Virus record (IMG/VR): IMGVR_UViG_3300030328_001660 | Location: 1 to 57,086 of that record | Direction: 5' to 3' (one strand) | Length of the DNA stretch: 57,086 nt | Origin: a virus | Lineage: Duplodnaviria; Caudoviricetes | Shown here: positions 14,601 through 45,128 of the stretch, in pieces | Layout: each line of letters starts with the position of its first letter | How positions within the stretch are numbered: position 1 is the stretch's first letter | Notes under the pieces: generated by a model | The model's input: only the letters and a program-made list of their open reading frames with translations | The model's database searches: none | What the model was told of the DNA's origin: nothing | Program-made: the position numbers and the translations under genes

Positions 14601-15596
14601 GTAGAAAAAGGTAAACAAGAAGAAGTAATTAGTTATCTTCTTATACGAGAACTTTTAAATAATAACCAAATCGCAAACCAAATGCACACCTATGTACAAA
14701 ACAGGCATATCTATAGTAGTGAAGTTCCTGTAAACGCCGAAGAGTTTATGTCAGTAATTGGTTACTTTTATAAAAATAGTGGCGTAAACTTAAGCGGAGC
14801 TATTTCCTTAACCGATACTGCTGGAGTCTTTTCTTACAGTAGTCCTACTTTAGATAAAGACTTTGTTCATATGTTAGGAGAACAAGATGTTCTTGACGGG
14901 AATTTAGACGGAACTTATGAAACAGCTATGTCAGAAGCTTTAGCTCTTATTCCGTTTAAGAAAAGCCCACAAATGACAACACATCTAAAATCAACATATA
15001 TGGTAGCAGAGGGGACAGAAGCAAACGAACTTAAAGTAGAAATCGCCAAAGGTTTAGGACTAACAATTGACCAATATAATTCGCTTGTTGAAGAAACTAT
15101 AGACGCTTTAGATGAAGTATATGTCCCAAAACGTACCGCAAGCAGTCCGACCGCAGGTTCATTATCAAGAAGTTTTTTACAAAGTAAGCTAGATGGCGGG
15201 GCAACAAGAATTCAAACAGAAGGCGCATCTTTAGTAAGTACTCATTTAAAAATTATAGAGCTTATCCTTAGACAAGCTGAGGATATGGATGGTGATGACA
15301 AGGTATTAAACTTTAGTGGGCTAACATTAGATATGTTAAAAAGAAAAGAAGAGTTTAGGACTATTGGGGGTCTGTTGACATCTACATCTCTTAGTTATCC
15401 AGACTTAACACCAAGACTTTTATCCCCAACTCCTCAAACAATGTCTATAAGAACAGATGCTGGTCGAAAGCATCTTCTTGTGTTTGATATTGCGGGGTTA
15501 AAATCATCAGACGAAGCATCAATAGAAGTGGGAGGTGTTGCGCCAAGGCGTGTATCTCTACCCTTCATTACCTTTAGGGGAGCCAACCATAAATGA
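11658..15596 (+). CDS. Large putative internal virion protein
   Basis: 1312-aa ORF with GGAGG RBS, between the gp14-like gene and the giant protein. No catalytic motif recognised. Confidence 0.6.
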   Translation: MSSNTPRYENIDSFDEGFDPRRNYVRNKLYGMYRAEKDSEIYYPQLNKMDDEELLYRFNNFGRSKEEQKESEELYYLMRDVAYPADSGGFGGGGGESYGINTGMDFPAVYPGENPLFKTRDVTRTQPKIGITPAQQYLAVEPNLPWWLRSYGLSPEGIVSQQAVAEIDLMEEEEEDTIKQRYAVYRVWQNKAMARKTIGYGFGGMLPYNPQDFKPLLAQMAIASQTDELDPSQDIILAEVEEHSDLYDRMSEEINNLIVENPDTEPIAIVGSVLKKFANEDRDRYVTGAELMDMTEEEIAAVGSQRPLVFPKVAPWVTQDKRSYLFTAMTEFSKKLEAKAEQLSAAAAENTREDPNTNSLVEEVKAEALMCVTETCKELEGKAADFIDDLRESGSYSEEELRVIASGMVGAEVTPTEKGKEKDMIPILESYARDNSAITEDDNILTMALKMKNMGDIFNYLIKQSKEGIDIQADYAETLRILKENGVLLPFDPQVSPTEILERSQRLFHNNVIIPFTERRNAFSTPEGRYQLAAVNVFRRFVDPSISDYSDVLRYVQSAVYDTDPNMTLNRKMAIIELYSNGRSAFKASLNASNGSSALNSALSAINAPPGVNARKPSQTPFAFTDFPPSTARQDPQTWNESVQNTYQRWVETISARSYGHIKDPKERANMVSGLKSVMRIEQNEQGLGRIVVDWESSDPSTLIPIAQTLLDEMDQYNVSEVPSILRGLGMQVTEGLQLMGGEIGENETEKMKKVYRSLSILGMIYNPKNATKAKGVKSMMGWNQGDYSAYQTAITALRADSSVFSNLGNFYEAASDKERAGFLSEFARDFNTRSRVIFEALANRASGSAIGLSDTRRGLLTNTIQTNNFLSSVFPLMSFGKSRHGQRTLQDMGEKSSGTSYDAFNAEVEVGDVKVSGWDKIRATLQEVMPGTQFKTFESSDFTNLANELGGILGLNKADMKTLRERVIEDGEDWIPWNDSVEKGKQEEVISYLLIRELLNNNQIANQMHTYVQNRHIYSSEVPVNAEEFMSVIGYFYKNSGVNLSGAISLTDTAGVFSYSSPTLDKDFVHMLGEQDVLDGNLDGTYETAMSEALALIPFKKSPQMTTHLKSTYMVAEGTEANELKVEIAKGLGLTIDQYNSLVEETIDALDEVYVPKRTASSPTAGSLSRSFLQSKLDGGATRIQTEGASLVSTHLKIIELILRQAEDMDGDDKVLNFSGLTLDMLKRKEEFRTIGGLLTSTSLSYPDLTPRLLSPTPQTMSIRTDAGRKHLLVFDIAGLKSSDEASIEVGGVAPRRVSLPFITFRGANHK

Positions 15597-18500
15597 CCAG
15601 TCAAAACTTAAACGCATGGGCTACCAGTGATTTACCTTTTTACTTTCGTGACAATGAAGAACAGAATCAAGGCATTAGAGAATGGAGTGAGTTTACAGAA
15701 GGATTTAAAAAACTATCAGAACCTTCGATTGTCGGTGGAAGAACTCCTGACATTAGTGATTCTTGGTCTATTGATTTAGAAACTGGTGAGTTAGTTCGTG
15801 GTGTTTATGATATTACGACAGCTATGACACACGGGTCTTACTCTTCATACTATGGCGGTATGTTCGAGGATAACCAAGCTCGAAGCAAGTACTCAGCAAG
15901 AATGCAATTGGGTGCTTACAAGCATGACCTCTATAAAGGTACGGCTCTTGAGTTTAGTGAGAAGGACAAGAAACTTTTAAATCACTATGCAAGTAAAAGT
16001 GCTTGGAACTTGTCTAGATTAGGCGACCCTTTTCGTGATGAACAAGAAGAAGCAGGCGTAGACCTTTGGGATGTACCCGTATTTACAAACTTTAATGAAA
16101 CTCCCGATAACATTATGGGAAGAGACGCTCCAGAAGGATGGGATCCTCAGCAAGCGTTAGAGGTTTTAAAATTAAAAGACCCTCAAATGTATTCGGTGTA
16201 CCTAAATACTCTAGGCGGCAGAGAAAACGTAGACGACTTACTCTCCGAAACCAAAAACCCCTACGACTTTTTCTATACACTAACAAACGAAATGCAGCAA
16301 ATCGCTTATATGCGAACTCAAATGGAGTGGTGGAAAACTGCTTCAGCGAGTGAAGTCGTAACTGAATACGTATATAACTTTGTTGTCGAAGGCATTGCTA
16401 ACGATCCAGACTTTGCTGCTTCTATGGGAATTAGTTTAGGAATTAGTGCAGGTACGGCTGGAGTTGGGGCAATACCCTCTTTTATTGTTGCAGCAGCAGC
16501 CAAAGTACTAAAAACTGGAATTAATTTTGCAAAGTTCTTAAAGTGGACGGCAAGATTACAGAATAGAATGAATCAACTCCAAAGATATCTGCCAGAAAAC
16601 TTGGGTCCGACTTTGGTAAATAAAATTCCACAAGTAAAAAGCTTTGCGCAACACGGTAAGTTTGCCCAATTCTCAGTAAATAGACTAGGAGATGTAGGTG
16701 AAGGTTTAATTACTGGTGGCTTAGCTGAAATTGGAAACCAATACAGACAATTAGATGCCGGTACTTTAGATTCATTTAGTGTTACTAGAGTTATTAACGA
16801 GTCTTTAATTGAAGCGGCCTTTTCTCCTGCGGTAAACCCTGCAATCGGCGGACTATACAAGGGTATAGGGGCATTAGGTTCTTTAGGATCCAATCAAATT
16901 GCCGTGCCTTTAGCTAATGCTCTACTAGGTGAAAACTCTGTAAAGGGGATCTCTAATTTTGTAGGGAAAATAGGAAGGACTGCAAACCCGCAAGCATTAG
17001 CAGAGCGTCTTGAGCTGATTGAAATTAATACTGAGATTAGAGCAGAGCTTGAAGCATTGACTTTAGAAGGAACTGATATTGAAACGGGAGTCGAAGAAGA
17101 TACAGACCCCACTAGTCCTACCGGAGTCATTAGTGCTGTTATTGCCTCGTTGTTTGACGAAACAGGAATGAGTAAGGCAGAATTCCTAACGTCAGTAAAA
17201 GAAATCCTTACTGATTTTAGGGAACAAGCAGACAACCCAACAGATGCTCGAAGACCTAAGGAAGGCAAAGAACAAGAGGTTGTACTAGCCGAACTCGCAC
17301 AAGAGCTTGTAAACAGAAACCAAGAAGTAATCCTAGAAAGAAACGACGGGAATAAGCAAGTCTTTGCCAATATCCTAGGATGGACCAAGCAGCACATTAC
17401 TCTTGCTAAGCAAGCTGCTAAAAAAGGAATGAGCTATAAAGACTATGTAAATCAAATTATTGAAAGGGGAGAGGAATTTAACTTAGTTCCTAATGATATT
17501 AGAAAGGCTGTTGTAGAAAAATTAGGTGAGAAATTTAAAGACGCAACTACAGAAGAAAGGCTGGAGGTTGCTAAAGAAATTCTACAAGAAAGAATTCAAG
17601 AACAGAAGAAAGCAATTACCGAGTTTAATCAAAGAACCGATGAAGGAGAAGCTGAAGCCGATGCAAGAGATGAGGATATAGACGGAATCGATCCCGATCC
17701 AGCAGACCCTGCTCCAGCAGATCCAGAGCCTAAGCCCGTAGACCCAGAGAAACGAAAGGGAGATGATGACCCTAAGGATCCCGGACTTGAAGGAGGAGAA
17801 GGTGGTCCTCCAGCAAGAAAGAGATCAGAAGATCCCTTAGTTAGGCGAGAGGAACTAAAACGAAAATTAGAAAAACAGAAGAGAGAACTAGAGGCTTTAA
17901 AAAAGAAACTAGAAGATAGACTAAAGAGCGATCCAGATCCTAAAATTAAGGAGAAAGTAGAAAAGGTTCGGAGTTTAGTTCTATCTGTAGAGAAGCAACT
18001 TGAGACAGTAACAGTAGATTTAAATCAAATGCTAGCCGACCACGCTATTGATAACGCTGAACTTAAGCCTTTAGTAAATACCCTGATAGATCTTCGAGAT
18101 AGGTTACACAAGATTTCAGAAGATTTGAAAGTTGACCAAGAAGATGACAAGGGAGTAATCTGGTCTTATTTTAGGGCTAAGAGATTTGAAGCGTTGCTTA
18201 CAAAATTAAACAGGCTCTATATCGAGGAAGGAGAGGGTGGAAATGTTAAGTCAGCTGATATAAGTCCTGAACTAAGACAAACGCTTGAAGATATTAAAAA
18301 AGAATTAAAGGATGATAATTCAAAAACAGCAGATAGAATGAAGCAATACATAAACGGAGTATTAGCGGGTACAGAAAAACAAATGACTCCTAAGACGATC
18401 TCACAATACCTTGTTAGGGGTGGTCAGGTAATTAAAAGTCACATGGAGCGGCTAGAAAAAACTGACCTATACAAAGAGAACAGTGCTCTAGTTAAAGAGT

Positions 18501-21500
18501 TTAACAAAACCCTAAGGGACTATAAGAGAGTTATCGCTAATATCCAAAGGGGAGAAACCCTAAACGATATTCAGAAATTCTTCGCTATTCAATTACAACA
18601 AACTGGTGCTAGAGCACAACGAAAAGAAACGGAAGTATTTGAAGCCAAAGAAAAGCTGTTTAATGATATGATTGGAGATAAGGAAGCAGAAGGAGAAACG
18701 GTTACGGTAAACGAACTTCTTCCTGTTCTTCACCAGTTCTCTGAGTGGCGACAAAATAAAGAAGCAGTTGTAGAAGAAAACCCTGAAAAAGGTGAAAAAG
18801 AATACACAATAGAAGAAGCAAAAGAAATCTTTGGTAAGGAAGCCGCAGCCGTAAAACAAAAGATTAAAACTCTATCCATCGGAAAACTACAGAACCTTAG
18901 AGCGGGCGGGCGGTACTCTTACATTCGTGGAGATTACGAACACAACTACAATGATTCTGATGTATTGGGAACATCTTACGACCCCGAGTATGTACTAGAG
19001 AGATCAAACGAAGACGGTAAAGAACTTGATCCTGAAACTGTAGACGATACAGCAGAGATGATAGTTGAGCCAGAAGGTCTTGACGATATGAAACAAGCTG
19101 ACCTTAACAAGTTTATTGACGATGTAATGGGAGGCGAAGGAGGAAAGGGCGGAAAAAACAAGGATAAGGTTGCCCGCATTAGAGCGTGGATTGCTAATAA
19201 AAACGCCGAAGTTAAACCAAAAAGAACAGGACCAGCTTACCTTCCTTCACCAACTGTAGTTTACGAGACTCTAGATGCGGCGGATGGTTCAAGTTTATTT
19301 GAGGATTCTTTCGATGTACGAAATGCAGAAGCTCGGGAAGTTGGATTTGAAGACTATTTTCACGCTGTAAATTCCTATAATCTATATGTTATTGGGATTC
19401 ACAAAAATAAAGAAAACTTTGCAAAGGCTGCAAAAGGAATAGGAAGAAAGGAAATAAAGGAAGCGTGGGATGCACGAAGCAAACTATCGGAAAAACAAAG
19501 AGACGCAGCAAAGGCACAAAAAATAAACTTAGTAAAGCAAATGAAGAAGGAACTAAGAACTGAAGATATTGTCTTTACTAGGTCTTTGGATAAGGACGTA
19601 GAAGCTTGGATACAATTTGAAGCAGCCTTAGACATGTTAGCTACTAAGGCAGATCCTACCAAAGGAATTGCAGCTTGGAGAATTAACCAAGCAATGCCAG
19701 CTTACCTTAGAGATTACGTAGGGCTTAAACCCTATGTTGTGTTTGGTAGAGAGAATGTATTAGGGAAGTCACACTCCGCTCTAATGCCTTCTGATGTTGT
19801 AGATGTAGATATGGCATCTGCTACTGACCGACAAGTTGTCCAACATACCTTAAGGTATAGACCGGAAGAACTTTTAAATATCGCAAGAGCTTGGAAAGAA
19901 AGAGGAGTAGCTAAAATCGACGGATGGCAAAAGCAAGAACTTGCCAATGTTTTAGATACCCTAGAAGCTCAAGCAATGGATGAGTCCAACCCTAATTCAG
20001 CAGCAAACCTTTACTATACAATAGCCTTTATTGAGAGACTAGAGAGTGCGAGTGAACTTGTAAATAGAGAGCTTTTTAAAATGAGACAGGAAAAGAGAGA
20101 CGGCGGTTGGATTATGGAAGTAGACGGGGATACAGGGTTTCCTATTAAATTCACAAAGGATGAGAGCACTTGGATTGGCGATGCACGCGGACACATAAGA
20201 GATAGAATAAACTCTCTAATCGAAAGAAGGCAAACCAGATCCTTAAGGAACATCGCTGAAAAATTCGGCTTGACTCTAGAAGAACAACGAAATGAATTCC
20301 ATTTCCCAACCTATGTAATAACAGACGCAGAAGGTAATATATCTGATAATGTAGCTGACGTTATTATTGAGAGTATGAGAACTGAACTAGAAGGACTACA
20401 TGAAGGCCAACTATCTTTAACTAAGTTAGGTAACGGAGAATACGGATACGGCTCTTCTAAAAACGTAGGCTATGCTGTTGTAGATTTCTTAAGTGATAAG
20501 GAAATGCCTTCTATCCAAAGTCTTACGGCTATTACAGATAAGGATGGAAAGGTAATTCCAGCACAAGCAGACGAAGATACTGAAATTAAGGGACAGCCTA
20601 CAAATGTTCGACTTCCTATAGAAGGGGAAGTAAACCACGCTATGCCTATTCCAGCAATGAAGCTGGCAGCTTTAGTATCTAACTATAAAGCAAGAGAACG
20701 AATGAGGTTTATTCTGGGTAAGGAAAAATTTACTCCAAAGGAAAGAGAAGCCTATAAGGCGTGGGTAGAAGCTAAGTGGTCAGACATTAAATCTGAACTC
20801 AAGGATCCAGATCCTACAGGAGAGCAAGTTCCTTTTGCTGTTATTCCTCAGATTGTAGGTAACAGGTTGCACGAACAAGTAATGAAGAGATCTGAAGTGA
20901 AGGCATTTATTATGGAACTTCTTTTAGATGTGCCTCGAAATGCAGAAGGATTTATTCACGATCAGGTTACTAGAAGGCGTGGAAGTCGTTTGATGTTTAA
21001 TGAAGGAATGGAAGAAGGTATAGTCCAAGTAGTCGATAGAGATGGTAATATTGTTGATAGGGACATTAAAAACCTAGACAAAGATCAAGGCTTAATGGTT
21101 GACCTTAGTCACGGAGATCACATTCTAGTACCTTTAGGAAGAATAGGAGAAATCCTTGCAATTGAGGCAATGGGTCCAATGTTTAAGGGACTAACAAGTG
21201 TCGCTGTTGAAGAGGTAATGAAACTTAGAGATAAGAGAGAAGCTGACGGTACGGGAACATCTATAAATGATTTCCTTTCTAATGATAACTGGAGTGACCG
21301 AGTTGCTAGTGGCGTGTTTGAGATGAAACTGATGTCATTAGCAAATGACCCTAACGCTACTATTGAGGTTGACGGAAAGAAGATGACCGCCGAAGAAATT
21401 ATGAATGGAATTTTAGATGGGACTTTCAAGAGAAAGGAAAAGACTGAGCTTGACTTTTATATGCGAGGTGCGATTACTGCCGGTAGAAACAATACAGACA

Positions 21501-24500
21501 CCTCGACTCAGATTGGAAAAATCTTTGAGCTTATAAAAAAGCGAGATATTAAAACAATGGATGATATCGTTGCTTTAGAAGAGCTAGGTAAAACAGATGA
21601 AGATGCGGCTAAGGATTCACAAGAAATCGCGAAACTTAGAGGAGTTTTTAAAGTACCTATTCTAAGAAGAATTTACGGCGGCGGTCAAAAGAACTTTGAC
21701 GAAGAATTTGCGGAGGGAGGAAAGGGCTATGATGCGATGAAAGAATCAGGCATTGAGCCTAGCACTGAAAATATTGCTGCACTTAAGAAGATTCTATTTT
21801 CTAAGATAGGGGTTAGTGCCTCTAAATCTTACCTCATTGACGTAGCATTAGGAGTTGACGAAAAAACTAAAAAACTTGTACACTCTTATTTAAGGATTGA
21901 ACAGGAAAGGGACAAGCCCTTGTTAGAGGCTTGGAAAAACTTAATGGATATGGACAATAAAACATTAAGTAAGGAATTAGAAAACTCCATAACTCATATT
22001 GATTTGCTAGATAAAAAGCTGAGGCAACTATATAGGTTAGATAAATCGACAATGACATTTGAAGAATGGAAAAAAGTCAAGGGATACGACGAGAGGTTTG
22101 AGGCTGCTAAAAAATTCTTAACAGAAAAACATGAAGCGGGAGATGCAATCCATCCCGGCACTGATAACTACGCTGAGTTTAAAAGAATGGTTTCCGGCGT
22201 TGGCGGTAAACTAACGGCAGAATCTATTGGTTACTTAAGGGCATTAAACATCCTTAACTCTCAAGAATATAGAATAAATGCGGAGAGAATTAAAAACGCA
22301 GCGGAACTCTTGGGGTTAAAAGATTTTGATATAACAGATTATTTAGGGTTTGAGGCACACGCTGTATATCAAGTTATGTTACCCAGTGGAAACTCAGGAA
22401 GAACCTATAACACAAGAAACATGGGATTAGATACCTTAGGGATTTCTTTAGAAAGAGTAGCGAGAGTTTCTCAGTATACACATGAGGGCATTACTTACGA
22501 AAGCTTCTCTGACTTCCTTGAATCTGGCGCAGCACCTACAGATAAGGCAGTGCTCACCCAGCTATTTGAGGATTTCTTAGCCCAAGATAGCGACAATGCA
22601 GATGCCTTGGGGGCCTATGATCTTGCTGATCCTTTCTTAAGAGATCAAAGAGATGCGGGCAAGACAGACGAAGAGTTAGAACAAATCGTAGAAGACTTAA
22701 TGATTAAGCAAGAAATGCTTCTTTGGTCAAGCTACGATAGGCCGCCATCAAGTGTATTCCCTGACTATACAGTAGAAGATTCGGATGTTGGTTTGTTAGG
22801 AAATATCCTAAGGGAATGGTATTCTCACTCTGAAGGAAGGCATGAATCCTTACGAGATGAGATGAGAAGAGAAATGGACCATTGGAATAGGGAAGGAGAA
22901 AATAGTAAGTTCCTTGCTCTTAAAAATAAATCCGGTGGTCTAGTCAATAAGAAGGTTGTGGACGCTTCTAATGGTGCGTACCGATATACGCCATATCACG
23001 TTTCTGAAAACAACCCTACGTCAGTAATGCTTCATACAGCAGGCCAAAGGGGACCACTGGCAATGCGACCGAAGTATAAGGAATCTCAATACCATGATGT
23101 AGGTTTCTTCGGTCTACAAAAGCTTCATATCCAAGAGAGATTAGAAAGACTGCTTGGGCCTTTACACACTATTAGGCGAAACCAAAGAGAACTATCTGAC
23201 GAAGAAGTAATGGTAGGAGGAACTAATATTGGTGGGTTCTCTCCTTGGAACGCGGCTGAACTACCGCAAGTTATTCCAACTCTCCCAGCAAACATGGCTG
23301 CTGAAGTAGGAACTCCTGCTGGAGTAAGGGCAGCACAACTATATTACGAAACTCATATGTGGGCCACAGAAAGAGGATTACAAGAGCAGTTAGAAGCGGA
23401 CCCAGAAAACTTTGCAAGGTTCTACATTATTAGGGAGATTGAAAGGACAAGGCAAGACATTCACAGAAGAGTTAGAGAGGATGATGTTATAGCCGACTCT
23501 GATGTTACTGCCCATAGAAACGCTTGGGTAAGTGGACTGCATGATGTTGTCCGATACTCTCGGGATATTAAAAACCCAGAACCAAGAAGAAAGCTAAAGA
23601 TGTTCCCTGAAGGAGAACAATTCGCTGCTGTTAATCCTATTGCTGACGACTTAACTTATTATGAAAACTTAACCAGCGTCCTTTCAGAAGATAACCCAGA
23701 AGGTATCTTACTTAGGCGTAGTATCTTAGATGGTGAATTTAAGATGGGGCAAGCTCCTGACTTTAACTTAGTAATTGACTTGGATGAAGGTGCGGGGGAA
23801 ATGAATCTCTTTGAGTTTAGTGACTTAACCGAAGATGCGTGGGCAGTCCAGAACGCAGACTTTAATAAATTCTTAGCTGCCCAACTATTTACTGAAGCCA
23901 TTGGTAATGCCCTTAAAAACTATAAAGACGGTAAGTATGCAAAGTATGCTATGAGACCAGATGACTGGGAAACAGAAATTGGTGAAGGACTAACAACAGC
24001 AGAAGCTATAGCAGAAAGACAAGAGATACTACAAATGGCAAGGGAGTACGTAGCAGCTCTTCCTTCCTATACTTTGGAAGTAGGTATAGAAGAAGTACTG
24101 TACGATGACGCTAAGGGTCGAGGAAAGAAAACCAATAAATATAGGTTAGCTTTTAAACGACCTTCAGGAGAAGGGCAGGCACAAAAGGGTGTATACGGGG
24201 CTGCCGTAGGTTTTGGCATGACATTTATGACCTCTCAAAAGATTAGCGCAACAAGTGGTAAGTTCCTTCTAGGAGAAGGCGAAGCTTTAAAAATGTTTAG
24301 TATATTAGAGAACGCTCAAACAATGGAAGGGATTAACCTAAGCAATTGGCTTAACAAGGGATTAGGAATTAAAGTAGCTGCGAACGGTCAAGTAGTAAGA
24401 GCTGTACCTCTGCACGAACGTGTAGCAGACGCTTTAGGATACAGTGCTAGACCTATTAGGGATGCAGCCCTTACTAATTCTGAATCTATTAGCAGGGCTT

Positions 24501-31212: not shown

Positions 31213-31319
31213 CACACACACCGCCTCAGCTCCCTTCACTGGGGGCATGAGGCATTCCGCAGGACTAACTTCGTCAACGTGACGAACTAACCCTGCTTAC
31301 TCTAATGGAGGGTATCCTT

Positions 31320-31709: not shown

Positions 31710-31723
31710 ACTCACACGGAACC

Positions 31724-31916
31724 CCTCACTGTTCCCGAAAGGGAATGGTGAGGATTAGGAGCGGCTAGCCTCAAGGACGAGGTTAACCCGCAAAGAGATA
31801 CGTACTCCTCTACGCAAGGATGTGTAGTGTGGTGGAGTGAGTGTGATTCTCCCGGCCTAGTTGTATTGTTGGGCGGGAGCTAGCCTTACTGTTCCTTAAC
31901 AGGAGTAGTGAGGATT
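31724..31916 (+). repeat. Two related 13-bp hairpins (processing sites or terminators)
   Basis: CCTCACTGTTCCC-GAAA-GGGAATGGTGAGG-ATT (31724) and CCTTACTGTTCCT-TAAC-AGGAGTAGTGAGG-ATT (31884). Confidence 0.7.
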
Positions 31917-31983
31917 GGGTCTAGCGATGTGCTAGGCTCGGTCACTAATGAGTTGCCTCTTAGAGGCAGAAAGGTTCTTCAAA

Positions 31984-33807: not shown

Positions 33808-33829
33808 TCCTTCTGGCTAACCAACCGAT

Positions 33830-33862
33830 CTCCCCTGCCCTAACGGGTGGGGGAGTTTCTTT
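33830..33862 (+). terminator. Intrinsic terminator after the second RNAP gene
   Basis: CTCCCCTGCCC-TAAC-GGGTGGGGGAG followed by TTTCTTT. Confidence 0.85.
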
Positions 33863-34195
33863 CACAACGGGGGATACGCTAAATCGATTGCCTTAGCAAT
33901 CAGAGTGTGTATTATCTTTGTCCCGGTCCGGGTACGTCCCCGCGTATGTATGGTGGTGGTGATCCGGACGACCCCTGCGCTCGGCCCCTCAAAGCCGGGG
34001 CCGAGAAACTCTAAGCAGTGAACGCCGAGCACTAGGCGTTAAAAGTGGGTGTAATAGTAGGTTGTATCCACATACCTAGGTTTGTCCCTAGGTTTTGAGA
34101 TTTTTATGGGTGTGTGGGTGGGTAGTCACATACCTGACTGATAACTAGGCTTGTACACCTTAGGTCAGTCCTTAGGTCTACCCCGGAGATGATCA

Positions 34196-34450
34196 ATGAC
34201 CACCATTATCATCAAGAAGAAGAAGGCCCGCAAGGGTCCACCTGCGGACGATGCTCCTGTTACTGAGAAGGTTGCATACTGGGACGAGCGTTTCAGGCAG
34301 TGCTATGGCACTGAAGTTGCAGTCTCAGAAGGCACAGCCAAGGAGCAGCAGCGTTGGCCGGACCACAAGCGAGCCGAGATCGACCAGATGTGCAAGGAAT
34401 TGGACATCCAACACCACGATGAGGATGGAAACGTACTCACGCTGGCGTAG
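34196..34450 (+). CDS. Hypothetical protein
   Basis: GGAG RBS, 84 aa, Lys-rich N-terminus, GC3-biased codons. Confidence 0.65.
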   Translation: MTTIIIKKKKARKGPPADDAPVTEKVAYWDERFRQCYGTEVAVSEGTAKEQQRWPDHKRAEIDQMCKELDIQHHDEDGNVLTLA

Positions 34451-34560: not shown

Positions 34561-34815
34561 ATGCCGGGGCCTTTACACAAGCACAGGGAGCCACACATGT
34601 GGGAATTCTTTTGTAATGCAGAAGGCGAAGTCTGGGTGGCATACTGTCACGATACTTACACAGCACACGTTTTGCTGGATGAGCGTCGTGGGTTGTATGA
34701 CCCTGACCCAAAGATCCCTCAGCATGTCATCGAGGCATGGAGGACTTGCCGTGAACTCGGCTACTCCTCGGGTCTGCAAACGGAGAACTGCGGAGGTGCG
34801 TTCATCAATGATTGA
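34561..34815 (+). CDS. Hypothetical protein
   Basis: 84-aa ORF whose stop overlaps the start of the sigma-like gene. The true start may be the internal Met after GGGAG. Confidence 0.5.
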   Translation: MPGPLHKHREPHMWEFFCNAEGEVWVAYCHDTYTAHVLLDERRGLYDPDPKIPQHVIEAWRTCRELGYSSGLQTENCGGAFIND

Positions 34816-35293
34816 AGAGAACGATCTCCGGATTGCGAGGTGGAGATTATCCCGTAAGGGTTGTCCTCAGGATTTACTGGAGGACTATATCAACACTGCC
34901 GTTGTTTGTTTGTTAGAACAAGAGGAAGTAATTGAGGGTAAGCTAGGCATAGGTAATTGGTTGGGTCGTGTGGCCTTTTACAAATGGGTAGATGACCGCA
35001 AGAAACTATCCTTCAGGAAAACCAGAGGTTGGCCGAAGGACAATGAGGGAGAAGACTCAGAATTTCAGGGGGATCACATCCCTCCAGATCAGTTAGTGTT
35101 AGACAGGGAAGAAGCTGACCTTCAGGAGAAACATGTGATGAATCTCATCCATGAAGGGACGGTCATGCAGCAAGACGTAGCACATCTTGTGGCACGCTCT
35201 CCTCTGAAGAAGGGCAGAAAGGTTGCAGCAATAGTTAGAGGTGTCTCTTACCAAGCTACTGCTGTCGCCCTGAATTCCTACCGCAAAAGATAA
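34808..35293 (+). CDS. ECF (sigma-70 group 4)-like sigma factor
   Basis: GGAGGT RBS. Region 2-like 'DLLEDYINTAVVCLL...NWLGRVAFYKWVDDRKK' and region 4-like 'QQDVAHLV...KVAAIVRGVSYQATAVALNSYRKR'. 161 aa from ATG 34808. Confidence 0.6.
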   Translation: MIEENDLRIARWRLSRKGCPQDLLEDYINTAVVCLLEQEEVIEGKLGIGNWLGRVAFYKWVDDRKKLSFRKTRGWPKDNEGEDSEFQGDHIPPDQLVLDREEADLQEKHVMNLIHEGTVMQQDVAHLVARSPLKKGRKVAAIVRGVSYQATAVALNSYRKR

Positions 35294-39697: not shown

Positions 39698-39770
39698 GCC
39701 TCTATAGCTCAGTCGGTAGAGCATCGGCCTTTTAAGCCGCTGGTCGCTGGTTCGAGTCCAGCTGGAGGCA
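39698..39770 (+). tRNA. tRNA-Lys(UUU)
   Basis: Acceptor GCCTCTA/TGGAGGC, loop CT-TTT-AA, T-loop TTCGAGT. No encoded CCA. Confidence 0.95.
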
Positions 39771-39772
39771 TC

Positions 39773-39846
39773 GGGCCGGTAGCTTAGCGGTCTAAAGCTA
39801 TCGACTCATAATCGATTGATCGTCGGTTCAAATCCGACCCGGCCCA
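39773..39846 (+). tRNA. tRNA(CAU), probably Ile2 (lysidine type), otherwise elongator Met
   Basis: Acceptor GGGCCGG/CCGGCCC, anticodon arm ATCGA-CTCATAA-TCGAT. Lacks the initiator 3xG-C pairs. Confidence 0.9.
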
Positions 39847-39860
39847 TTGGAGAAAATAAA

Positions 39861-40097
39861 ATGCCTAAGTTTGAATACACTTTTGATATCGAAGAAACGA
39901 CTATCAGACGATGTGAAATTGAAGTAGAAGCGGAGACATTAGAAGCAGCAATGGCTGCCGTAGAAGAGCAAGGTCCTTGGGATTGGGAAGTCCACTATGG
40001 CAAGGAACTTTGGTACGAATGCGATGAAACCTTGGACAATGATCCAAAGAATCCTGAACACTGGGATAAAATATATGAGGAACTTACTGATGTATGA
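39861..40097 (+). CDS. Small acidic hypothetical protein
   Basis: GGAG RBS before ATG 39861; the track start lies within a tRNA. Confidence 0.65.
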   Translation: MPKFEYTFDIEETTIRRCEIEVEAETLEAAMAAVEEQGPWDWEVHYGKELWYECDETLDNDPKNPEHWDKIYEELTDV

Positions 40098-40251
40098 TGA
40101 ATCTTGGGAGGATGATTGGTCTGTTGACATGGCAATTGAAGAATGGCAAATAGAAAAGGATAGAAGGCAGGAAGCTAATTATAATAACCACGCTTGGCGG
40201 AGGGGATATCGTGTGCCAGAAGAAGGAACAGATAATATTCGAGAAGCTTGA
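40090..40251 (+). CDS. Small hypothetical protein
   Basis: GAGGA RBS, overlaps the previous stop. Confidence 0.45.
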   Translation: MYDESWEDDWSVDMAIEEWQIEKDRRQEANYNNHAWRRGYRVPEEGTDNIREA

Positions 40252-40294
40252 AGCTGAAATGAGAACAAACGACGAACATCAAAAGGATGACGCT

Positions 40295-40368
40295 GCCCCG
40301 GTAGCTCAGCTGGATAGAGCAGCTGACTTCTAATCAGCAGGTCGCAGGTTCGAGTCCTGCTCGGGGTG
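40295..40368 (+). tRNA. tRNA-Arg(UCU)
   Basis: Acceptor GCCCCGG/TCGGGGT, anticodon arm GCTGA-CTTCTAA-TCAGC, T arm GCAGG-TTCGAGT-CCTGC. Confidence 0.95.
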
Positions 40369-40370
40369 TT

Positions 40371-40730
40371 ATGAAACTAGAAAAATATATTGATATTGCA
40401 ATGCCTATGGCAGTACAGAGTACAAGGAAAAAGAAACATGTATCTTTAATTATCAGAAAAGGAGAGCTTGTTTCTTTTGGTGTGAACAAAATGAAGACAC
40501 ACCCCCTTGCAAAACGGTACGGTTACAGGTATAATGAAGTACATTCAGAGCTTGATGCTCTATTGAAATACAAAGGACCTAAGGATAAGTTGGTGCTTTT
40601 AAACTTTAGGTTTAATCGGTTTGGTGAAATGCGGATGAGTAAGCCGTGCAAATTATGTATGCCGTGGTGTTCTGCGGTGTTTGATAAGATCATTTATTCT
40701 ACTACCAATGGAATGGTGACTGAACATTAG
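40371..40730 (+). CDS. Zn-dependent cytidine/deoxycytidylate deaminase-fold protein
   Basis: 'VHSELDAL' (HxE) and 'SKPCKLC' (PCxxC). Confidence 0.8.
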   Translation: MKLEKYIDIAMPMAVQSTRKKKHVSLIIRKGELVSFGVNKMKTHPLAKRYGYRYNEVHSELDALLKYKGPKDKLVLLNFRFNRFGEMRMSKPCKLCMPWCSAVFDKIIYSTTNGMVTEH

Positions 40731-40813
40731 GCTCTGTGGCGGAATTGGCATACGCATTAGACTTAAAATCTAACGCCCGAAAGGGATTGAGGGTTCGAGT
40801 CCCTCCGGAGCTA
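40730..40813 (+). tRNA. tRNA-Leu(UAA)
   Basis: Acceptor GGCTCTG/CGGAGCT, anticodon arm TTAGA-CTTAAAA-TCTAA, long variable arm CCC-GAAA-GGG. Confidence 0.95.
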
Positions 40814-40815
40814 TT

Positions 40816-42399: not shown

Positions 42400-42687
42400 A
42401 TGATGCAGAAACACGATCAATTAGGTGGTGGTAATTGGAATGCCCATAAGCCACGGGTATGGAAAAAATTAAGAGAGAAGCATAGGAAACATGCAGCATC
42501 AGGCCGGTCCGGTCCATCAATGCCTGAAGGGCATATACCGCACGGTGGTGCAGGTAAAGGTGACATGAATAGAGTTGTTAACCAAACCAAATATTCTTTA
42601 GGTTTAGATCTTATCCGAATCGCCAAAGAAAAAGGTAAGGATTCTAAGGAATATAAAGAAGCCCTTGAGGCTTGGAGGAACGCTTGA
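42400..42687 (+). CDS. Hypothetical protein
   Basis: GGAG RBS, 'GAGKGDMNR' motif. Confidence 0.6.
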   Translation: MMQKHDQLGGGNWNAHKPRVWKKLREKHRKHAASGRSGPSMPEGHIPHGGAGKGDMNRVVNQTKYSLGLDLIRIAKEKGKDSKEYKEALEAWRNA

Positions 42688-45128
42688 TCTGGCATACGCT
42701 TTCTGAAGAAGAAAAAGATATTCGAGTTAATTCTCAATTAGCTTTTGAAGAAAAGATGTTAGACTACGGTAGAGAAAAATACTGGCGAGAATATAATCGG
42801 TCCCCAGATGAGGGCATACCGGAACAAGAGCTGATAGATACTTCCGTTAAAGAACTAACTGAACTCTATCAAGACTGGATAGACAAAGTATGTAGCTCAC
42901 CTCGCTGTCCCAAGTGGATCTATCCTCTAATAGAATTAGGTGCTAAGAAAATGGCTGACGTTACGTTACGTTCTGTCATTAGGAATTGGTTTTCTAGTTC
43001 TTATTGGGGGTACAACTGGCAATCAAATCAAATAGTTCCTCCATTAGCCCAGAGTGTCTCTAGTCAGATAGCTCAAGACGCATTGGACATTATAAATTTT
43101 CAACGGGCTAAAGATAACAACAGAGAAGACTGGCTAAAGCAATCTAAGTTTGTAAAGAACTGGACCACAAAAAGATGCAAGGCTTTTTCGCAGAAGCTAG
43201 AAGAAAATACTGAGATATCTTTAAAAAACAAACGTGACTTCGGTCACAATATGTTGCGCATAGCTGCCTCGTCTAATGTAATTCGGCTAGTGACGCACAA
43301 AACAAAGAGAGGAAACCTTTACCGAAACTTATTAACGGTAGAGTTCCATCCCTCTGTGTTAAAAGAACTGCACAACAGACATGAGTTTCTTCAGAACAGT
43401 GCTCTAATCTATAGACCTATGATCTCAAGGCCAGTAAGCCATACAAAAGAATACTCAGGCGGGTATATTACTTCGTCAATTAGAAAACCTGTAGTTCAAA
43501 GATACAAATCAAATTTCTTTAGCGATCATACAATTAAACAAAAGTTTTCAGAGCCTTCCAAGGTTGTGCTTGATGGTTTAAATACCATGATGGATACAGA
43601 GTGGTGCGTCAATGAGAAAACTTATGATGTAATGAAGAATTTGTTTGAGAATAATACAGGGCTAGCTAACTTACCTTACTATTCTTTTGAAGAGTTCATG
43701 TATAACGAGCCGTACCCTAAAGACGGAACTAAAGAAGAGAAGGCTATATGGTGTCAGAAGAAAGAAGAAGCTTGGGGTAAGTGGTATAAACAAGAACAAT
43801 CAAGAGGTAGAATGCTGGTTAGATTACAGCTAGCAAAAGATTTAATAGAGTGTGGTTGGTTCTACCATGTCTATACTTGTGACTTCCGTGGCCGTGCTTA
43901 TACAACCTGCGAATTGCTTTCTCCCCAGTCATCTGATACAGACAGAGGATTGATAAAGTTAAAGAACAAAAGAAAGTTAACAGAACGAGGTAGGTACTGG
44001 CAGAAGATTAACTTAGCTAACCTTTTTGATCAAGACAAAATTACTTTTGAAGAAAGAGTGCAGTGGGTAGAGGATAACTGGGATATGTTTGTGCGTATTT
44101 CAAAGGACCCTTATAGTAATAAGGAGTGGATTGATGAAGCCCCAAAGAAAAACAAATCTTTTCAGAGACTATCAGCAATCTTCGACATTACTAGGACTGA
44201 TGGCTATAGTGATATACCTATTAACGTCGATGGTAAATGCAATGGCAATCAGCATTGGTCTGCTATTATGGGAGATAGTAGCATTGCCAAATTAACAGGA
44301 GTCATCCCCTCAGATACTCCGCTTGATTTGTATCAGCATGTTGCGGATAGCACTACCACTCACTGTAAGAAGTTTATAGAAGAAAACTCTTGGTACAAAA
44401 AGTTCCTTAAGTATTGGACAGGAAGAATAGAACGCAAGGTAACTAAGCGTAGTACAATGTGCGAGCCTTATGGCATAACCTTCTACGGAATACAAAGATA
44501 TATAAAAGAAGAAGGACACCTTGACTGGGTGCCAAGAGAACAACGAGGCGGTGCTATAGTTGAGCTTGCCCGTGCTATAAAAGCAAGCCTAGATATATCC
44601 TTGGGAGAACCAAATAAAGGCAAACAATATCTTAAGGATATAGTAGAGGAAGCAAACAAGGTTAATGTACACGTTACTTGGACGACCCCAAGCGGATTCA
44701 AGGTAGTACATTACTATAACAAGCAACAAAAGAAAAGATCTTTAGCTGCTTTGTTTAATAAAAAAGAGTTAGTCTTTTACGTAAGAACAAAAGATGTTAA
44801 CCCTAGAGAAGCTTTGCAAGCTATCTCTCCTAATTTTATACACAGTTTAGATGCTGCTCATATGTTTTTAACTATCGACATGATCAGTAAGTTGTATGGG
44901 ATTATAGATTTGTGCATGATACACGACTCTTACGGTTGTCATGCTAACGATATGGATATTATGAGAGACTGTCTTCGTCATACATTTGTAGATATTCACG
45001 CAGAGAATCAACTGGAAAACTTTAAGATCCAACTTGAAAATCAGTTGGGAATTAGCTTGCCTTCTGTTCCAGAACGTGGTAAACTAGATATAGGTTCAGT
45101 CTTAAGTTCAGAATACTTTTTTGCGTGA
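42672..45128 (+). CDS. T7-type single-subunit DNA-directed RNA polymerase (canonical)
   Basis: 'DFRGRAY', motif A 'DGKCNGNQHWSA', motif B 'RKVTKRSTMCEPYG', 'PNFIHSLDAAH', motif C 'IHDSYG'. 818 aa, TTG start. Confidence 0.96.
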   Translation: MEERLIWHTLSEEEKDIRVNSQLAFEEKMLDYGREKYWREYNRSPDEGIPEQELIDTSVKELTELYQDWIDKVCSSPRCPKWIYPLIELGAKKMADVTLRSVIRNWFSSSYWGYNWQSNQIVPPLAQSVSSQIAQDALDIINFQRAKDNNREDWLKQSKFVKNWTTKRCKAFSQKLEENTEISLKNKRDFGHNMLRIAASSNVIRLVTHKTKRGNLYRNLLTVEFHPSVLKELHNRHEFLQNSALIYRPMISRPVSHTKEYSGGYITSSIRKPVVQRYKSNFFSDHTIKQKFSEPSKVVLDGLNTMMDTEWCVNEKTYDVMKNLFENNTGLANLPYYSFEEFMYNEPYPKDGTKEEKAIWCQKKEEAWGKWYKQEQSRGRMLVRLQLAKDLIECGWFYHVYTCDFRGRAYTTCELLSPQSSDTDRGLIKLKNKRKLTERGRYWQKINLANLFDQDKITFEERVQWVEDNWDMFVRISKDPYSNKEWIDEAPKKNKSFQRLSAIFDITRTDGYSDIPINVDGKCNGNQHWSAIMGDSSIAKLTGVIPSDTPLDLYQHVADSTTTHCKKFIEENSWYKKFLKYWTGRIERKVTKRSTMCEPYGITFYGIQRYIKEEGHLDWVPREQRGGAIVELARAIKASLDISLGEPNKGKQYLKDIVEEANKVNVHVTWTTPSGFKVVHYYNKQQKKRSLAALFNKKELVFYVRTKDVNPREALQAISPNFIHSLDAAHMFLTIDMISKLYGIIDLCMIHDSYGCHANDMDIMRDCLRHTFVDIHAENQLENFKIQLENQLGISLPSVPERGKLDIGSVLSSEYFFA

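What the first reader, a model, noticed from the sequence alone, without database searches (positions are those of the whole stretch)
15593..45128. One T7-like genome with up to three single-subunit RNA polymerases plus a sigma factor: a candidate new transcription cascade
Seen: a canonical T7-type RNAP (42672-45128); a second ~607-aa protein with the ordered RNAP motif set (31984-33807); RNAP motif A/B-like sequences in the 4764-aa virion protein; and an ECF-sigma-like ORF (34808-35293). Known: T7-like phages typically have one RNAP, while N4 uses an injected ~3500-aa virion RNAP, a small RNAP II and then host RNAP. Inference: this phage may place an N4-like relay (injected enzyme, early RNAP, sigma/middle, canonical RNAP) on a T7-type backbone, and gene order along the presumed entry direction fits this. 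I know of no described phage with this combination, but cannot confirm novelty without a search.
Basis: partly seen in the sequence, partly recalled or inferred. Interest (0 to 1): 0.95.

Follow-up and report, generated by a model that had tools for sequence, protein, structure and literature searches.

The report
T7-like phage with two RNA polymerases
This marine T7-like phage encodes its normal RNA polymerase plus a second, compact and very divergent one in a GC-rich early gene island, an arrangement already reported for its phage group in 2025, while the proposed third polymerase and sigma factor remain unproven.

Summary
The window is one IMG/VR record of a marine T7-like podophage.

- **Canonical RNAP:** the 818-aa enzyme at 42672-45128 is confirmed (Pfam RNA_pol E=3e-81).
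- **Second RNAP:** the 607-aa protein at 31984-33807 is a real but very divergent single-subunit RNAP. It has no Pfam or PHROG hit. Its family profile hits mitochondrial, N4 RNAP II and T7 RNAPs (E=1e-8 to 2e-4). Its model (pLDDT 88) matches only ssRNAPs (E~1e-12), and all catalytic motifs are conserved.
- **Clade-wide:** 13 of 13 related loci with at least 8 kb upstream of the canonical RNAP carry a second RNAP.
- **Early island:** it lies in a GC-rich island that avoids the codons read by the phage's four tRNAs.
- **Giant protein:** the 4764-aa protein has a conserved N4-like motif A/DxY/B pattern. Support is weak and one-directional, and the fold failed.
- **Sigma-like ORF:** an orphan with no sigma HMM hit and only two weak leads.
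- **Prior art:** two RNAPs plus a giant protein were published for marine Autographiviridae group AG-10.1 (PMC12361551).

This is a new member of a known kind.

The parts
42672..45128 (+). Canonical T7-type single-subunit RNA polymerase, 818 aa
   Evidence: Pfam PF00940 E=3.4e-81 and phrog_414 E=2.3e-156. All four motifs are present. It is 50-85% identical in 80 related viral loci. The best cultured-phage match is only 26.7% identical.
31984..33807 (+). Second, compact (607 aa), highly divergent single-subunit RNA polymerase ('p619')
   Evidence: No Pfam, PHROG or single-sequence PDB hit. The 21-sequence family profile hits mitochondrial RNAP (1.3e-8), N4 RNAP II 6dt7_B (1.9e-7) and T7 RNAP (2e-4). 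hhalign against the 818-aa RNAP gives 95.4%. The AF2 model has pLDDT 88.4. Foldseek top hits are all ssRNAPs, E~1e-12. D319, Y387, D545, H568 and D569 are nearly invariant.
30874..34450 (+). GC-rich, codon-adapted island of four genes (30874-31212, 31305-31709, p619, 34196-34450) at the late/early junction
   Evidence: GC3 is 0.67-0.73 against 0.29-0.40 in most other genes. AAA+AGA+TTA+ATA make up 0-0.018 of codons against about 0.04-0.15 elsewhere. GC3 steps from 0.32 to 0.73 across the 95-nt spacer 30780-30873. An independent metagenome contig spans 29157-36515.
15593..29887 (+). Giant 4764-aa protein with late-type codon usage; presumed ejected internal virion protein
   Evidence: One open frame. 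Homologues of 4559 and 5825 aa, and partial ones, occur in related contigs. GC3 is 0.30, like structural genes. No family hit.
21296..21682 (+). Giant protein aa 1902-2030: conserved 'DRxxSGxxE', then 52 aa to 'DFY', then 66 aa to 'RxxFKxPxxRxxYxG', resembling N4 vRNAP motif A / DxY / motif B
   Evidence: These residues are invariant in the 7-sequence alignment A5. N4 spacing is 51 and 60 aa. hhalign against a 9-sequence vRNAP profile is in register on DxY and motif B, score 38.3, probability 7%. Nulls score 16-28. The N4 A-to-B HMM ranks 5 of 7 giants on top of 645 ORFs. The reciprocal search fails.
25583..25597 (+). HExxH (HEIAH, aa 3331-3335) in the giant protein: zincin-like metallopeptidase motif
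   Evidence: H3331, E3332 and H3335 are invariant in the 3-sequence alignment A3. There is no Pfam hit, so the assignment is by motif only.
34808..35293 (+). 161-aa orphan ORF with weak ECF-sigma-like features
   Evidence: No Pfam, NCBIfam or PHROG hit. Sigma70_r2 and r4_2 HMMs find nothing in the window at E<=10. The only hit among 5.8 billion proteins is itself. No homologue among 2855 ORFs of 80 related loci. Atlas look-alikes score 0.95-0.96 and include Sigma70_r2 and r4_2 clusters. The top 2 of 3 PDB hits are sigma factors, E=0.26-0.28.
33830..33855 (+). GC-rich hairpin plus T-run, 23 nt after the p619 stop: terminator-like
   Evidence: 11-bp stem with 8 GC pairs, followed by TTTCTTTC. 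In relative G001 the stem is conserved and the loop differs. A near-identical copy lies at 89-114 (family D16).
31723..31753 (+). 31-nt hairpin, perfectly conserved between the window and G001, upstream of p619
   Evidence: Alignment A6. An exact 28-nt core occurs only in the G001-derived loci L003 and L009 among 33 loci. Function unknown.
31930..31942 (+). Conserved box TGCTAGGYTCGGT about 40 nt upstream of the p619 start codon
   Evidence: Conserved between the window and G001, although the p619 proteins are only 36% identical. Single exact copy in the window.
34042..34060 (+). Conserved non-coding box AAAGTGGGTGTAAKAGTAG downstream of the p619 terminator
   Evidence: Alignment A7. Single copy in the window. 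A promoter role is speculation.
39698..40813 (+). Four tRNA genes: Lys-UUU, Met/Ile2-CAU, Arg-UCU, Leu-UAA
   Evidence: ARAGORN and Rfam tRNA at 57.6-73.7 bits. They decode the A/U-ending codons that the island avoids.

Best explanation
The window is an uncultured marine T7-like podophage of the large-genome, AG-10.1-type lineage. It uses two phage-encoded single-subunit RNA polymerases in sequence.

The compact 607-aa enzyme (31984-33807) sits in a four-gene, GC-rich island directly after the last late gene. The island's codon usage avoids AAA, AGA, TTA and ATA, so it can be translated with host tRNAs alone before the phage's own tRNAs (39.7-40.8 kb) are made.

I propose this order of events:
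1. The island is the first DNA to be expressed. What expresses it is unidentified: host RNAP or an injected activity.
2. The compact RNAP then reads its own promoters to express the remaining early genes, the tRNAs and the canonical 818-aa RNAP.
3. The canonical enzyme transcribes the replication and late genes, including the giant 4764-aa protein.

Shown: both proteins are ssRNAP homologues with intact catalytic residues. The pair is conserved across the clade. The composition and codon step is real, and a conserved terminator follows the compact RNAP gene.

Inferred: the timing, the division of labour and the promoters.
For: Canonical RNAP.

Compact RNAP:
- The family profile hits solved ssRNAPs (E=1.3e-8 mitochondrial, 1.9e-7 N4 RNAP II, 2e-4 T7).
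- hhalign to the window's own RNAP gives 95.4%.
- The family connects to N4-like vRNAPs at 76% probability.
- The model has pLDDT 88.4 and pTM 0.88.
- Foldseek gives 149 hits at E<=0.001, and all listed top hits are mitochondrial or T7 RNAPs.
- DxxGRxY, the motif A Asp, motif B K/Y and the motif C HD are conserved in 21 family members.

Co-occurrence:
- 4 of 5 related records have a match to the p619-family profile, and 3 of 5 have the canonical RNAP. The records without a match are short fragments.
- 13 of 13 loci with at least 8 kb upstream of the canonical RNAP have a second RNAP 4.2-8.8 kb upstream on the same strand. For loci with 5-8 kb upstream the count is 4 of 11.

Early island:
- Island GC3 is 0.67 against 0.32-0.41 elsewhere. 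AAA is 0.08 of Lys codons against 0.38-0.57 elsewhere.
- The second-RNAP gene is more GC-rich than its locus in 17 of 17 loci, and by at least 0.04 in 15 of 17. Values are 0.525-0.58 against 0.39-0.41 in L003, L004 and L005.
- The terminator is conserved.
- The island is contiguous in an independent assembly.
Against: - No repeated phage-promoter family could be found, so nothing shows that the two enzymes read different promoter sets.
- Sigma-70-like sites are not enriched in 29.8-43 kb: 18 found against 17.6 expected. What transcribes the island first is therefore unknown.
- No RNA data exist for this DNA, so timing is untested.
- The compact RNAP has K where T7 has R627. This comparison is recalled. 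Activity is untested.
- GC-richness could also reflect acquisition from a GC-rich source. Du et al. suggest horizontal transfer. Against recent transfer, the bias persists in lineages where the protein has diverged to 36% identity.
Confidence: 0.6

Rival explanations
1. N4-like three-polymerase relay. The giant 4764-aa protein is packaged and injected, and carries an extremely divergent N4-vRNAP-like polymerase module (about aa 1900-2350). This module transcribes the GC-rich island from the incoming DNA. The compact RNAP and then the canonical RNAP follow.
For: - 'DRxxSGxxE', 'DFY' and 'RxxFKxPxxRxxYxG' are invariant in 7 homologues at 24-52% identity.
- Their spacing is 52 and 66 aa, against 51 and 60 aa in N4.
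- hhalign against a 9-sequence vRNAP profile aligns DxY and motif B in register with score 38.3. Eight windows along the giant score 17.4-28.1 and two reversed nulls score 16.2-17.2.
- The N4 A-to-B HMM ranks 5 of 7 giant ORFs as the top 5 of 645 ORFs, E=1.5e-4 to 0.16.
- Du et al. report Pfam RNA_pol in four AG-10.1 giant proteins.
- The giant has late-gene codon usage.
- No enriched host-type promoters lie upstream of the island.
Against: - hhalign probability is only 7%. The same method gives 76% for the compact RNAP family against vRNAPs.
- The reciprocal HMM search does not retrieve vRNAPs: the best is E=0.11, and E=3.1 for the A-to-B model.
- There is no PHROG, Pfam or PDB sequence hit for any piece. 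Three relatives' giants have no RNA_pol hit.
- No conserved TxxGR could be identified, and no convincing motif C Asp. The 'DLSHGD' and 'YHD' aspartates are not conserved.
- A lone motif B arises in 153 of 2000 shuffles.
Confidence: 0.2
2. The compact RNAP is not a stage in a cascade. It could be an accessory or alternative enzyme, for example a back-up that escapes host inhibitors of the canonical RNAP, a replication-priming polymerase, or a horizontally acquired, partly redundant gene.
For: - It evolves much faster than its neighbours. It is 36% identical between the window and G001, where the canonical RNAP is 80% and the adjacent ORF 89%. That pattern fits conflict or gene swapping.
- Du et al. 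infer horizontal transfer.
- No distinct promoter classes were found.
Against: - It is present in 13 of 13 loci with enough upstream sequence, always on the same strand and upstream of the canonical RNAP.
- The catalytic residues are conserved.
- The GC and codon bias is conserved.
- It has a dedicated terminator.

All of this points to a fixed, core role early in infection.
Confidence: 0.15
3. The 161-aa ORF (34808-35293) is an ECF-type sigma factor that redirects host RNA polymerase to a subset of phage promoters. This would add a host-RNAP stage between the two phage polymerases.
For: - Atlas feature look-alikes score 0.95-0.96. Six of the 30 are in clusters that carry Sigma70_r4_2 (52% and 17% of members) or Sigma70_r2 (75%), with 167-176 shared features.
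- The top 2 of 3 PDB phmmer hits are sigma factors, aligning 'GNWLGRVAFYKWV' with region 2 (E=0.26-0.28).
Against: - No Pfam or NCBIfam hit at E<=1.
- Sigma70_r2 and r4_2 HMMs find nothing in the window at E<=10.
- It is an orphan among 5.8 billion proteins.
- There is no homologue in G003 or G004, nor in 2855 ORFs of 80 related loci.
- The positional analogues are unrelated.
- Its composition (GC3 0.48, close to its GC of 0.47) does not match the adapted island. It may not even be a real gene.
Confidence: 0.1

Closest known systems
Marine Autographiviridae group AG-10.1 (Du et al. 2025, Commun Biol 8:1240, PMC12361551; sections 17 and 18 read in full)
   Same: - Large genome.
- A 3274-5566-aa protein gene (here 4764 aa).
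- An additional RNAP of roughly 650 aa (here 607 aa) downstream of the giant gene and upstream of the ~800-aa typical RNAP, among small unknown genes.
- Marine origin.
   Different: - The paper reports the absence of an SSB gene. The window has a weak gp2.5-like hit (phrog_112, E=5e-8).
- I did not test the phylogenomic placement. The paper's member list is in supplements that I could not see.
- The passages I read do not mention the GC and codon island, the tRNA match, the terminator, the N4-like motif pattern or a sigma-like ORF.
Escherichia phage N4 (Schitoviridae): injected 3500-aa vRNAP, then heterodimeric T7-like RNAP II, then host RNAP (scheme recalled; gene table seen)
   Same: - A giant protein gene beside smaller structural genes.
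- More than one ssRNAP-type enzyme in one podophage.
- The compact RNAP family profile hits N4 RNAP II (6dt7_B, E=1.9e-7) and N4-like vRNAPs (76%).
- The giant shows an N4-like A/DxY/B pattern.
   Different: - The backbone is T7-like, with all genes on one strand.
- The second RNAP is one 607-aa chain, not two subunits.
- A full-length 818-aa T7-type RNAP is present.
- Homology of the giant to vRNAP is not established.
Phage T7 and classical Autographiviridae: one ~880-aa RNAP, with early genes read by host RNAP (recalled)
   Same: Tail tube A and B, terminase, primase-helicase, DNA polymerase, exonuclease and RNAP modules in T7-like order on one strand. The canonical RNAP has all T7 motifs.
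   Different: - Two RNAPs.
- No gp14-16-like genes between tail tube B and the tail spike. Instead, unknown proteins of 233, 335, 130, 1312 and 4764 aa follow the terminase.
- The canonical RNAP is at most 26.7% identical to any cultured phage RNAP.
Mitochondrial RNA polymerases (POLRMT, Rpo41), which depend on initiation factors
   Same: These are the best sequence-profile and fold matches of the compact RNAP.
   Different: They have about 1000-1200 residues with long N-terminal extensions. The compact enzyme has about 230 residues before DxxGR, against about 400 in the window's canonical RNAP. No factor is known here.

Membership tests
T7-type single-subunit RNAP (Pfam PF00940): 818-aa protein | Pfam RNA_pol above the gathering score | tested here: met
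   273.8 bits against a cut-off of 22, E=3.4e-81. phrog_414 E=2.3e-156 over residues 19-818.
T7-type single-subunit RNAP: 818-aa protein | Ordered T/DxxGR, motif A Asp, motif B RxxxKx7YG and motif C HD (motif definitions recalled) | tested here: met
   DFRGR at 404, DGKCNG at 520, RKVTKRSTMCEPYG at 588 and IHDSYG at 751.
T7-type single-subunit RNAP: 607-aa protein (p619) | Pfam RNA_pol above the gathering score | tested here: not met
   0 families at E<=1. Among 21 family members, 3 give a weak RNA_pol match, best E=8.1e-4.
T7-type single-subunit RNAP: 607-aa protein (p619) | Profile-level homology to solved ssRNAPs | tested here: met
   The family profile hits 17 PDB sequences, all ssRNAPs: mitochondrial 1.3e-8, N4 RNAP2 1.9e-7, T7 2e-4. 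hhalign to the 818-aa RNAP is 95.4%. In distant clade members the second RNAP also matches the canonical-RNAP HMM, down to E=3.7e-66.
T7-type single-subunit RNAP: 607-aa protein (p619) | ssRNAP fold | tested here: met
   AF2 pLDDT 88.4, pTM 0.88. Foldseek top hits are mitochondrial and T7 RNAPs, E=1.5e-12 to 7e-9, probability 1.00, about 500-800 aligned columns.
T7-type single-subunit RNAP: 607-aa protein (p619) | Catalytic Asp of motifs A and C, and Lys/Tyr of motif B, conserved | tested here: met
   D319, Y387, H568 and D569 are at least 90% conserved in 21 sequences, and K379 is mostly conserved. They are invariant in the 3 closest sequences.
T7-type single-subunit RNAP: 607-aa protein (p619) | DNA-dependent RNA synthesis from specific promoters | not testable with these tools
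   Needs an in vitro transcription assay.
N4-like virion RNAP: giant protein centre | Sequence-profile match to the vRNAP family | tested here: not met
   No PHROG hit below E=0.06 for 5 overlapping pieces. No PDB hit at E<=10. hhalign to a 9-sequence vRNAP profile gives probability 7%. The reciprocal HMM finds no vRNAP below E=0.1.
N4-like virion RNAP: giant protein centre | Motif B RxxxKx7YG | tested here: met
   RGVFKVPILRRIYG at aa 2016-2029. R, K, P, R and Y are invariant in 7 homologues. It aligns on N4 motif B.
N4-like virion RNAP: giant protein centre | Motif A Asp and the DxY block at N4-like spacing | tested here: inconclusive
   D1902, S1906, G1907, E1910, D1954 and Y1956 are invariant. 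The spacing is 52 and 66 aa, against 51 and 60 in N4. Only DxY and motif B fall inside the hhalign alignment.
N4-like virion RNAP: giant protein centre | TxxGR motif and motif C catalytic Asp | tested here: not met
   No conserved TxxGR upstream. The candidates 'DLSHGD' and 'YHD' are not conserved in the 7-sequence alignment. 'LGxYDxxD' (D2343, D2346) is only a guess.
N4-like virion RNAP: giant protein centre | Palm/fingers fold | tested here: inconclusive
   The model has pLDDT 47 and pTM 0.26. Foldseek gives 0 of 36 hits at E<=0.001 and no polymerase. A poor model cannot decide.
ECF sigma factor: 161-aa ORF | Sigma70 region 2 and region 4 domains detectable | tested here: not met
   No Pfam or NCBIfam hit at E<=1. 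PF04542 and PF08281 find nothing in the window at E<=10, while they do match the control genomes.
ECF sigma factor: 161-aa ORF | Any independent similarity to sigma factors | tested here: inconclusive
   Atlas features score 0.95-0.96 to clusters that carry Sigma70_r2 or r4_2. PDB phmmer's top 2 hits are sigma factors at E=0.26-0.28.
AG-10.1 marine Autographiviridae (Du et al. 2025) | Giant 3274-5566-aa gene, plus an additional ~650-aa RNAP between it and the typical RNAP | tested here: met
   4764-aa gene at 15593-29887, 607-aa RNAP at 31984-33807 and 818-aa RNAP at 42672-45128.
AG-10.1 marine Autographiviridae (Du et al. 2025) | No SSB gene; placement in the core-gene phylogeny | tested here: inconclusive
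   There is a weak gp2.5-like hit at 46210-46737 (phrog_112, E=5.3e-8).

The most novel reading that the evidence does not exclude
The giant 4764-aa protein is an injected enzyme with an N4-vRNAP-like polymerase module so diverged that only the motif A / DxY / motif B core is recognisable. This widespread marine Autographiviridae clade would then run a three-ssRNAP relay: an injected giant, a compact codon-adapted early RNAP and the canonical late RNAP. That would be an N4-type strategy evolved or retained on a T7-type backbone, and would link the two podophage transcription paradigms.
Probability: 0.2. Interest if true: 0.8.

Novelty: new member of a known kind. Interest (0 to 1): 0.45.

Why it matters
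T7-like phages are the textbook case of one phage RNAP taking over from host RNAP. A globally distributed marine clade that always carries a second, compact ssRNAP raises the question of how two related enzymes divide a 60-70 kb genome between them.

The 607-aa enzyme is about 25% shorter than T7-type RNAPs. It belongs to a family unknown to Pfam and PHROGs and absent from 50,697 cultured-phage records, tested with three queries. That makes it a candidate orthogonal or compact polymerase for in vitro transcription.

The match between the island's codon usage and the phage tRNA set offers a simple, testable model of translational timing. The genome architecture itself is already in print (PMC12361551), so the value here lies in the structural confirmation, the clade-wide count and the mechanistic leads, not in discovery.

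Tried and rejected
- **Single-sequence searches with the 607-aa protein** found nothing in Pfam, PHROGs, NCBIfam, PDB or cultured phages. Only family profiles and the fold worked.
- **A viral-contig scan with the single protein** found no relative.
- **Giant protein.** Single-sequence hhalign to N4 was uninformative, because the positive control (T7-type against N4) also failed. Atlas look-alikes of the centre scored 0.76, which is uninformative. The AF2 model was poor and its Foldseek hits meaningless. Pfam on three relatives' giants gave only a sub-threshold PD-(D/E)XK hit.
- **Promoter discovery.** Direct-repeat families, 14-mer and 18-mer searches of intergenic and upstream regions, and the 'AACTAAAGGAGTTA' candidate all failed. 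That candidate gave 15 matches against 11 expected, has no extended conservation and looks SD-like. The boxes conserved with G001 are single-copy.
- **Sigma-70-like promoters** are not enriched.
- **No exact terminal repeat** of 20-2000 nt was found at the window ends.
- **No RNA holder listed.** The look-up of sequencing runs found only DNA runs, so expression could not be examined.
- **Chimerism of the GC-rich island** was considered and rejected. An independent contig spans it and relatives share the layout.
- **Positional analogues of the sigma-like ORF** in G002/G003 and G004 are unrelated to it.
- **Literature.** Four searches found only PMC12361551 describing this architecture, and no biochemical follow-up. 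PMC11705849 and PMC3821669 (passages read) concern N4-like or other podophages. The Kazmierczak 2002 paper on N4 vRNAP motifs is not held, so those motif definitions are recalled and checked against my own 9-sequence alignment.
- **Supplements of PMC12361551** (member lists, and which giants carry RNA_pol) were closed and could bear on membership.

Full report
**What the window is.** The 57,086-bp window is a whole IMG/VR virus record. It is linear and estimated at 85% complete. All long ORFs lie on the + strand.

PHROG and Pfam scans give this T7-like podophage layout:
- tail tube A and B (68-3523)
- a tail-spike-like protein (3533-7456)
- large terminase (7787-9484)
- five proteins with no family match, of 233, 335, 130, 1312 and 4764 aa (9562-29887)
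- small early genes
- ThyX and a methyltransferase
- four tRNAs
- an RNAP (42672-45128)
- phosphoesterase, a weak gp2.5-like protein, primase-helicase, DNA polymerase, kinase, exonuclease and ribonucleotide reductase

The head genes are missing from the record. The RNAP is at most 26.7% identical to any RNAP in 50,697 cultured-phage records. Public runs that hold the DNA are marine metagenomes.

**The canonical RNAP is confirmed.** It scores 273.8 bits against Pfam RNA_pol and has all four ordered motifs.

**The second RNAP is real.** The 607-aa protein (31984-33807; its homologues start at this ATG) has no hit in Pfam, PHROGs, NCBIfam, PDB sequences or cultured phages.

An exhaustive HMMER search of 1.8 billion representatives found 20 relatives at E<=0.001, nearly all of 500-640 aa. 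In their alignment these blocks are conserved: DxxGRxY, 'DAxASGxGH', 'Kx5PxxYGGG' and 'IHDA'. D319, Y387, D545, H568 and D569 are at least 90% conserved.

The family profile hits 17 PDB sequences, all single-subunit RNAPs: mitochondrial 1.3e-8, N4 RNAP II 1.9e-7 and T7 2e-4. The alignments pass through the DxxGR, motif A and motif C blocks. hhalign against the window's own 818-aa RNAP gives 95.4%. An AlphaFold2 model built on this alignment has pLDDT 88.4 and pTM 0.88. Its Foldseek hits are mitochondrial and T7 RNAPs at E~1e-12. It is an ssRNAP homologue with an intact active-site signature and a shortened N-terminal region.

**The pair is a clade feature.**
- Of five related viral records reached through the giant protein, 4 match the p619-family profile. 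The fifth is a 16.8-kb fragment.
- 3 of those 5 have the canonical RNAP.
- Using an alignment of canonical RNAPs I fetched 80 related loci; 158 relatives were detected.
- All 13 loci with at least 8 kb upstream of the canonical RNAP have a second RNAP 4.2-8.8 kb upstream on the same strand.
- 4 of the 11 loci with 5-8 kb upstream do as well.
- The other 56 loci have less than 5 kb of upstream sequence, and none of them shows a hit.
- In the more distant lineages the second RNAP is also recognised by the canonical-RNAP HMM (E=1e-9 to 4e-66). The compact family therefore grades into ordinary T7-type RNAPs.
- It evolves fast. It is 36% identical between the window and G001, where the canonical RNAP is 80% and the neighbouring ORF 89%.

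**A codon-adapted early island.**
- GC jumps from about 0.40 to 0.57 around this gene.
- Per gene, GC3 is 0.32 for 30195-30779 and 0.73 for 30874-31212.
- Four genes (30874-34450) have GC3 of 0.67-0.73. AAA+AGA+TTA+ATA make up only 0-0.018 of their codons, against 0.116 in the giant and 0.131 in the canonical RNAP (grouped figures).
- Those four codons are the ones read by the phage tRNAs Lys-UUU, Arg-UCU and Leu-UAA, and by the CAU tRNA if it is an Ile2 type.
- The second-RNAP gene is more GC-rich than its locus in 17 of 17 related loci.
- An independent metagenome contig spans 29157-36515 with 5 substitutions and no gaps, so the island is not a chimera.
- A strong hairpin plus T-run follows the gene. 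G001 keeps its stem but has a different loop.

My inference is that these genes are expressed first, with host tRNAs only. This takes up an unchecked first-reader note (e1-6328438), which I tested here.

**What I could not find.** There is no repeated promoter family and no enrichment of sigma-70-like sites. Footprinting against G001 gave single-copy conserved boxes at 31723-31753, 31930-31942 and 34042-34060. These are candidates for regulatory elements and nothing more. No RNA run holds this DNA.

**The giant protein.** It has homologues of 4559 and 5825 aa, the latter with PF18760, and several partial ones.

In a 7-sequence alignment of its centre (24-52% identity), these residues are invariant: D1902, S1906, G1907 and E1910 ('DRxxSGxxE'); D1954 and Y1956 ('DFY'); and R2016, K2020, P2022, R2025 and Y2028. 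The spacing is 52 and 66 aa. In N4 vRNAP the spacing from D559 to the DLY block to K670 is 51 and 60 aa.

Evidence for an N4-like module:
- Against a profile of nine Schitoviridae vRNAP domains, hhalign aligns the DxY and motif B blocks in register, with score 38.3, E=0.005 and probability 7%.
- Eight other windows along the giant score 17.4-28.1, and two reversed nulls score 16.2 and 17.2.
- An N4-family motif A-to-B HMM ranks five of the seven giant ORFs as the top five of 645 six-frame ORFs (E=1.5e-4 to 0.16).

Evidence against:
- The reciprocal HMM does not retrieve vRNAPs.
- No PHROG, Pfam or PDB sequence hit exists.
- TxxGR and a motif C Asp are not identifiable.
- The same hhalign set-up gives 76% for the compact RNAP family against vRNAPs, so the method can see distant ssRNAPs.
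- A lone motif B occurs in 153 of 2000 shuffles.
- The AF2 model is unusable, with pLDDT 47.

I rate an RNAP module at about 0.2. Du et al. report Pfam RNA_pol in four AG-10.1 giant proteins, which keeps this reading alive. That the giant is packaged is inferred from its late-type codon usage and its position after the terminase among unknown, probably structural, genes.

**The sigma-like ORF.** The evidence against it is stronger:
- It has no hit in Pfam or NCBIfam.
- Sigma70_r2 and r4_2 HMMs find nothing in the window even at E<=10.
- It is an orphan in 5.8 billion proteins.
- It is absent from relatives.
- Its composition is not that of the island.

Two weak leads point the other way. Atlas feature look-alikes score 0.95-0.96 and include Sigma70_r2 and r4_2 clusters. 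The top two PDB hits are sigma factors at E~0.27. It is not a conserved part of the system.

**Prior art and verdict.** Du et al. 2025 (PMC12361551; abstract and sections 17-18 read) describe AG-10.1:
- It has large genomes.
- Every member has a 3274-5566-aa gene.
- 23 members have an additional ~650-aa RNAP downstream of that gene and upstream of the typical RNAP.
- The authors suggest that different RNAPs transcribe different genes.

Four literature searches found no other description and no experiments.

The window is a new member of that kind. This work adds the following:
- fold-level proof for the compact RNAP
- the 13-of-13 count
- the codon and tRNA island
- conserved non-coding elements
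- a quantified, still weak case for an N4-like module in the giant protein

Noticed in passing
window 35655-35711 (+): Pistol self-cleaving ribozyme (RF02679) match at 37.3 bits (gathering score 34.5, E=6.5e-4). It lies inside the 640-nt gene-free gap 35294-35930.
   Followed up: no
window 89-114 and 33830-33855: Near-identical GC-rich hairpins (24 of 26 nt). One lies after the compact RNAP gene and one before tail tube A, that is, after the missing head genes. They may be the same terminator type used twice.
   Followed up: partly
window 25583-25597 (giant aa 3331-3335): An HExxH motif invariant in three giant homologues, with no Pfam hit. It may be a zincin-like peptidase module, as in polyvalent phage proteins; that comparison is recalled.
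   Followed up: no
P0010 / L004:7685-25159 and L020: Relatives' giant proteins carry different accessory modules. The 5825-aa homologue has PF18760. L020 has a PD-(D/E)XK nuclease hit just below threshold, 21.6 bits against 22. The giants look modular.
   Followed up: no
window 30195-30779: The last late-type gene before the GC step has a weak, sub-threshold dockerin-type match (E=0.0017, 19 bits against 22.9) at its C-terminus.
   Followed up: no
window 3533-15596: No gp14-16-like internal core genes lie between tail tube B and the tail spike. Instead, five proteins with no family match follow the terminase: 233, 335, 130, 1312 and 4764 aa. This suggests a relocated ejection-protein module.
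   Followed up: partly
L058, L061 (G004), L003 (G001): Several long contigs of the clade start or end inside the second-RNAP gene or within 600 nt after it. This could mark the physical genome end or an assembly-breaking hypervariable spot.
   Followed up: no
window 38405-39691 and 53805-55721: Auxiliary nucleotide-metabolism genes: ThyX (E=9e-43), a methyltransferase (E=9e-16) and a ribonucleotide reductase (phrog_367, E=1e-172).
   Followed up: no
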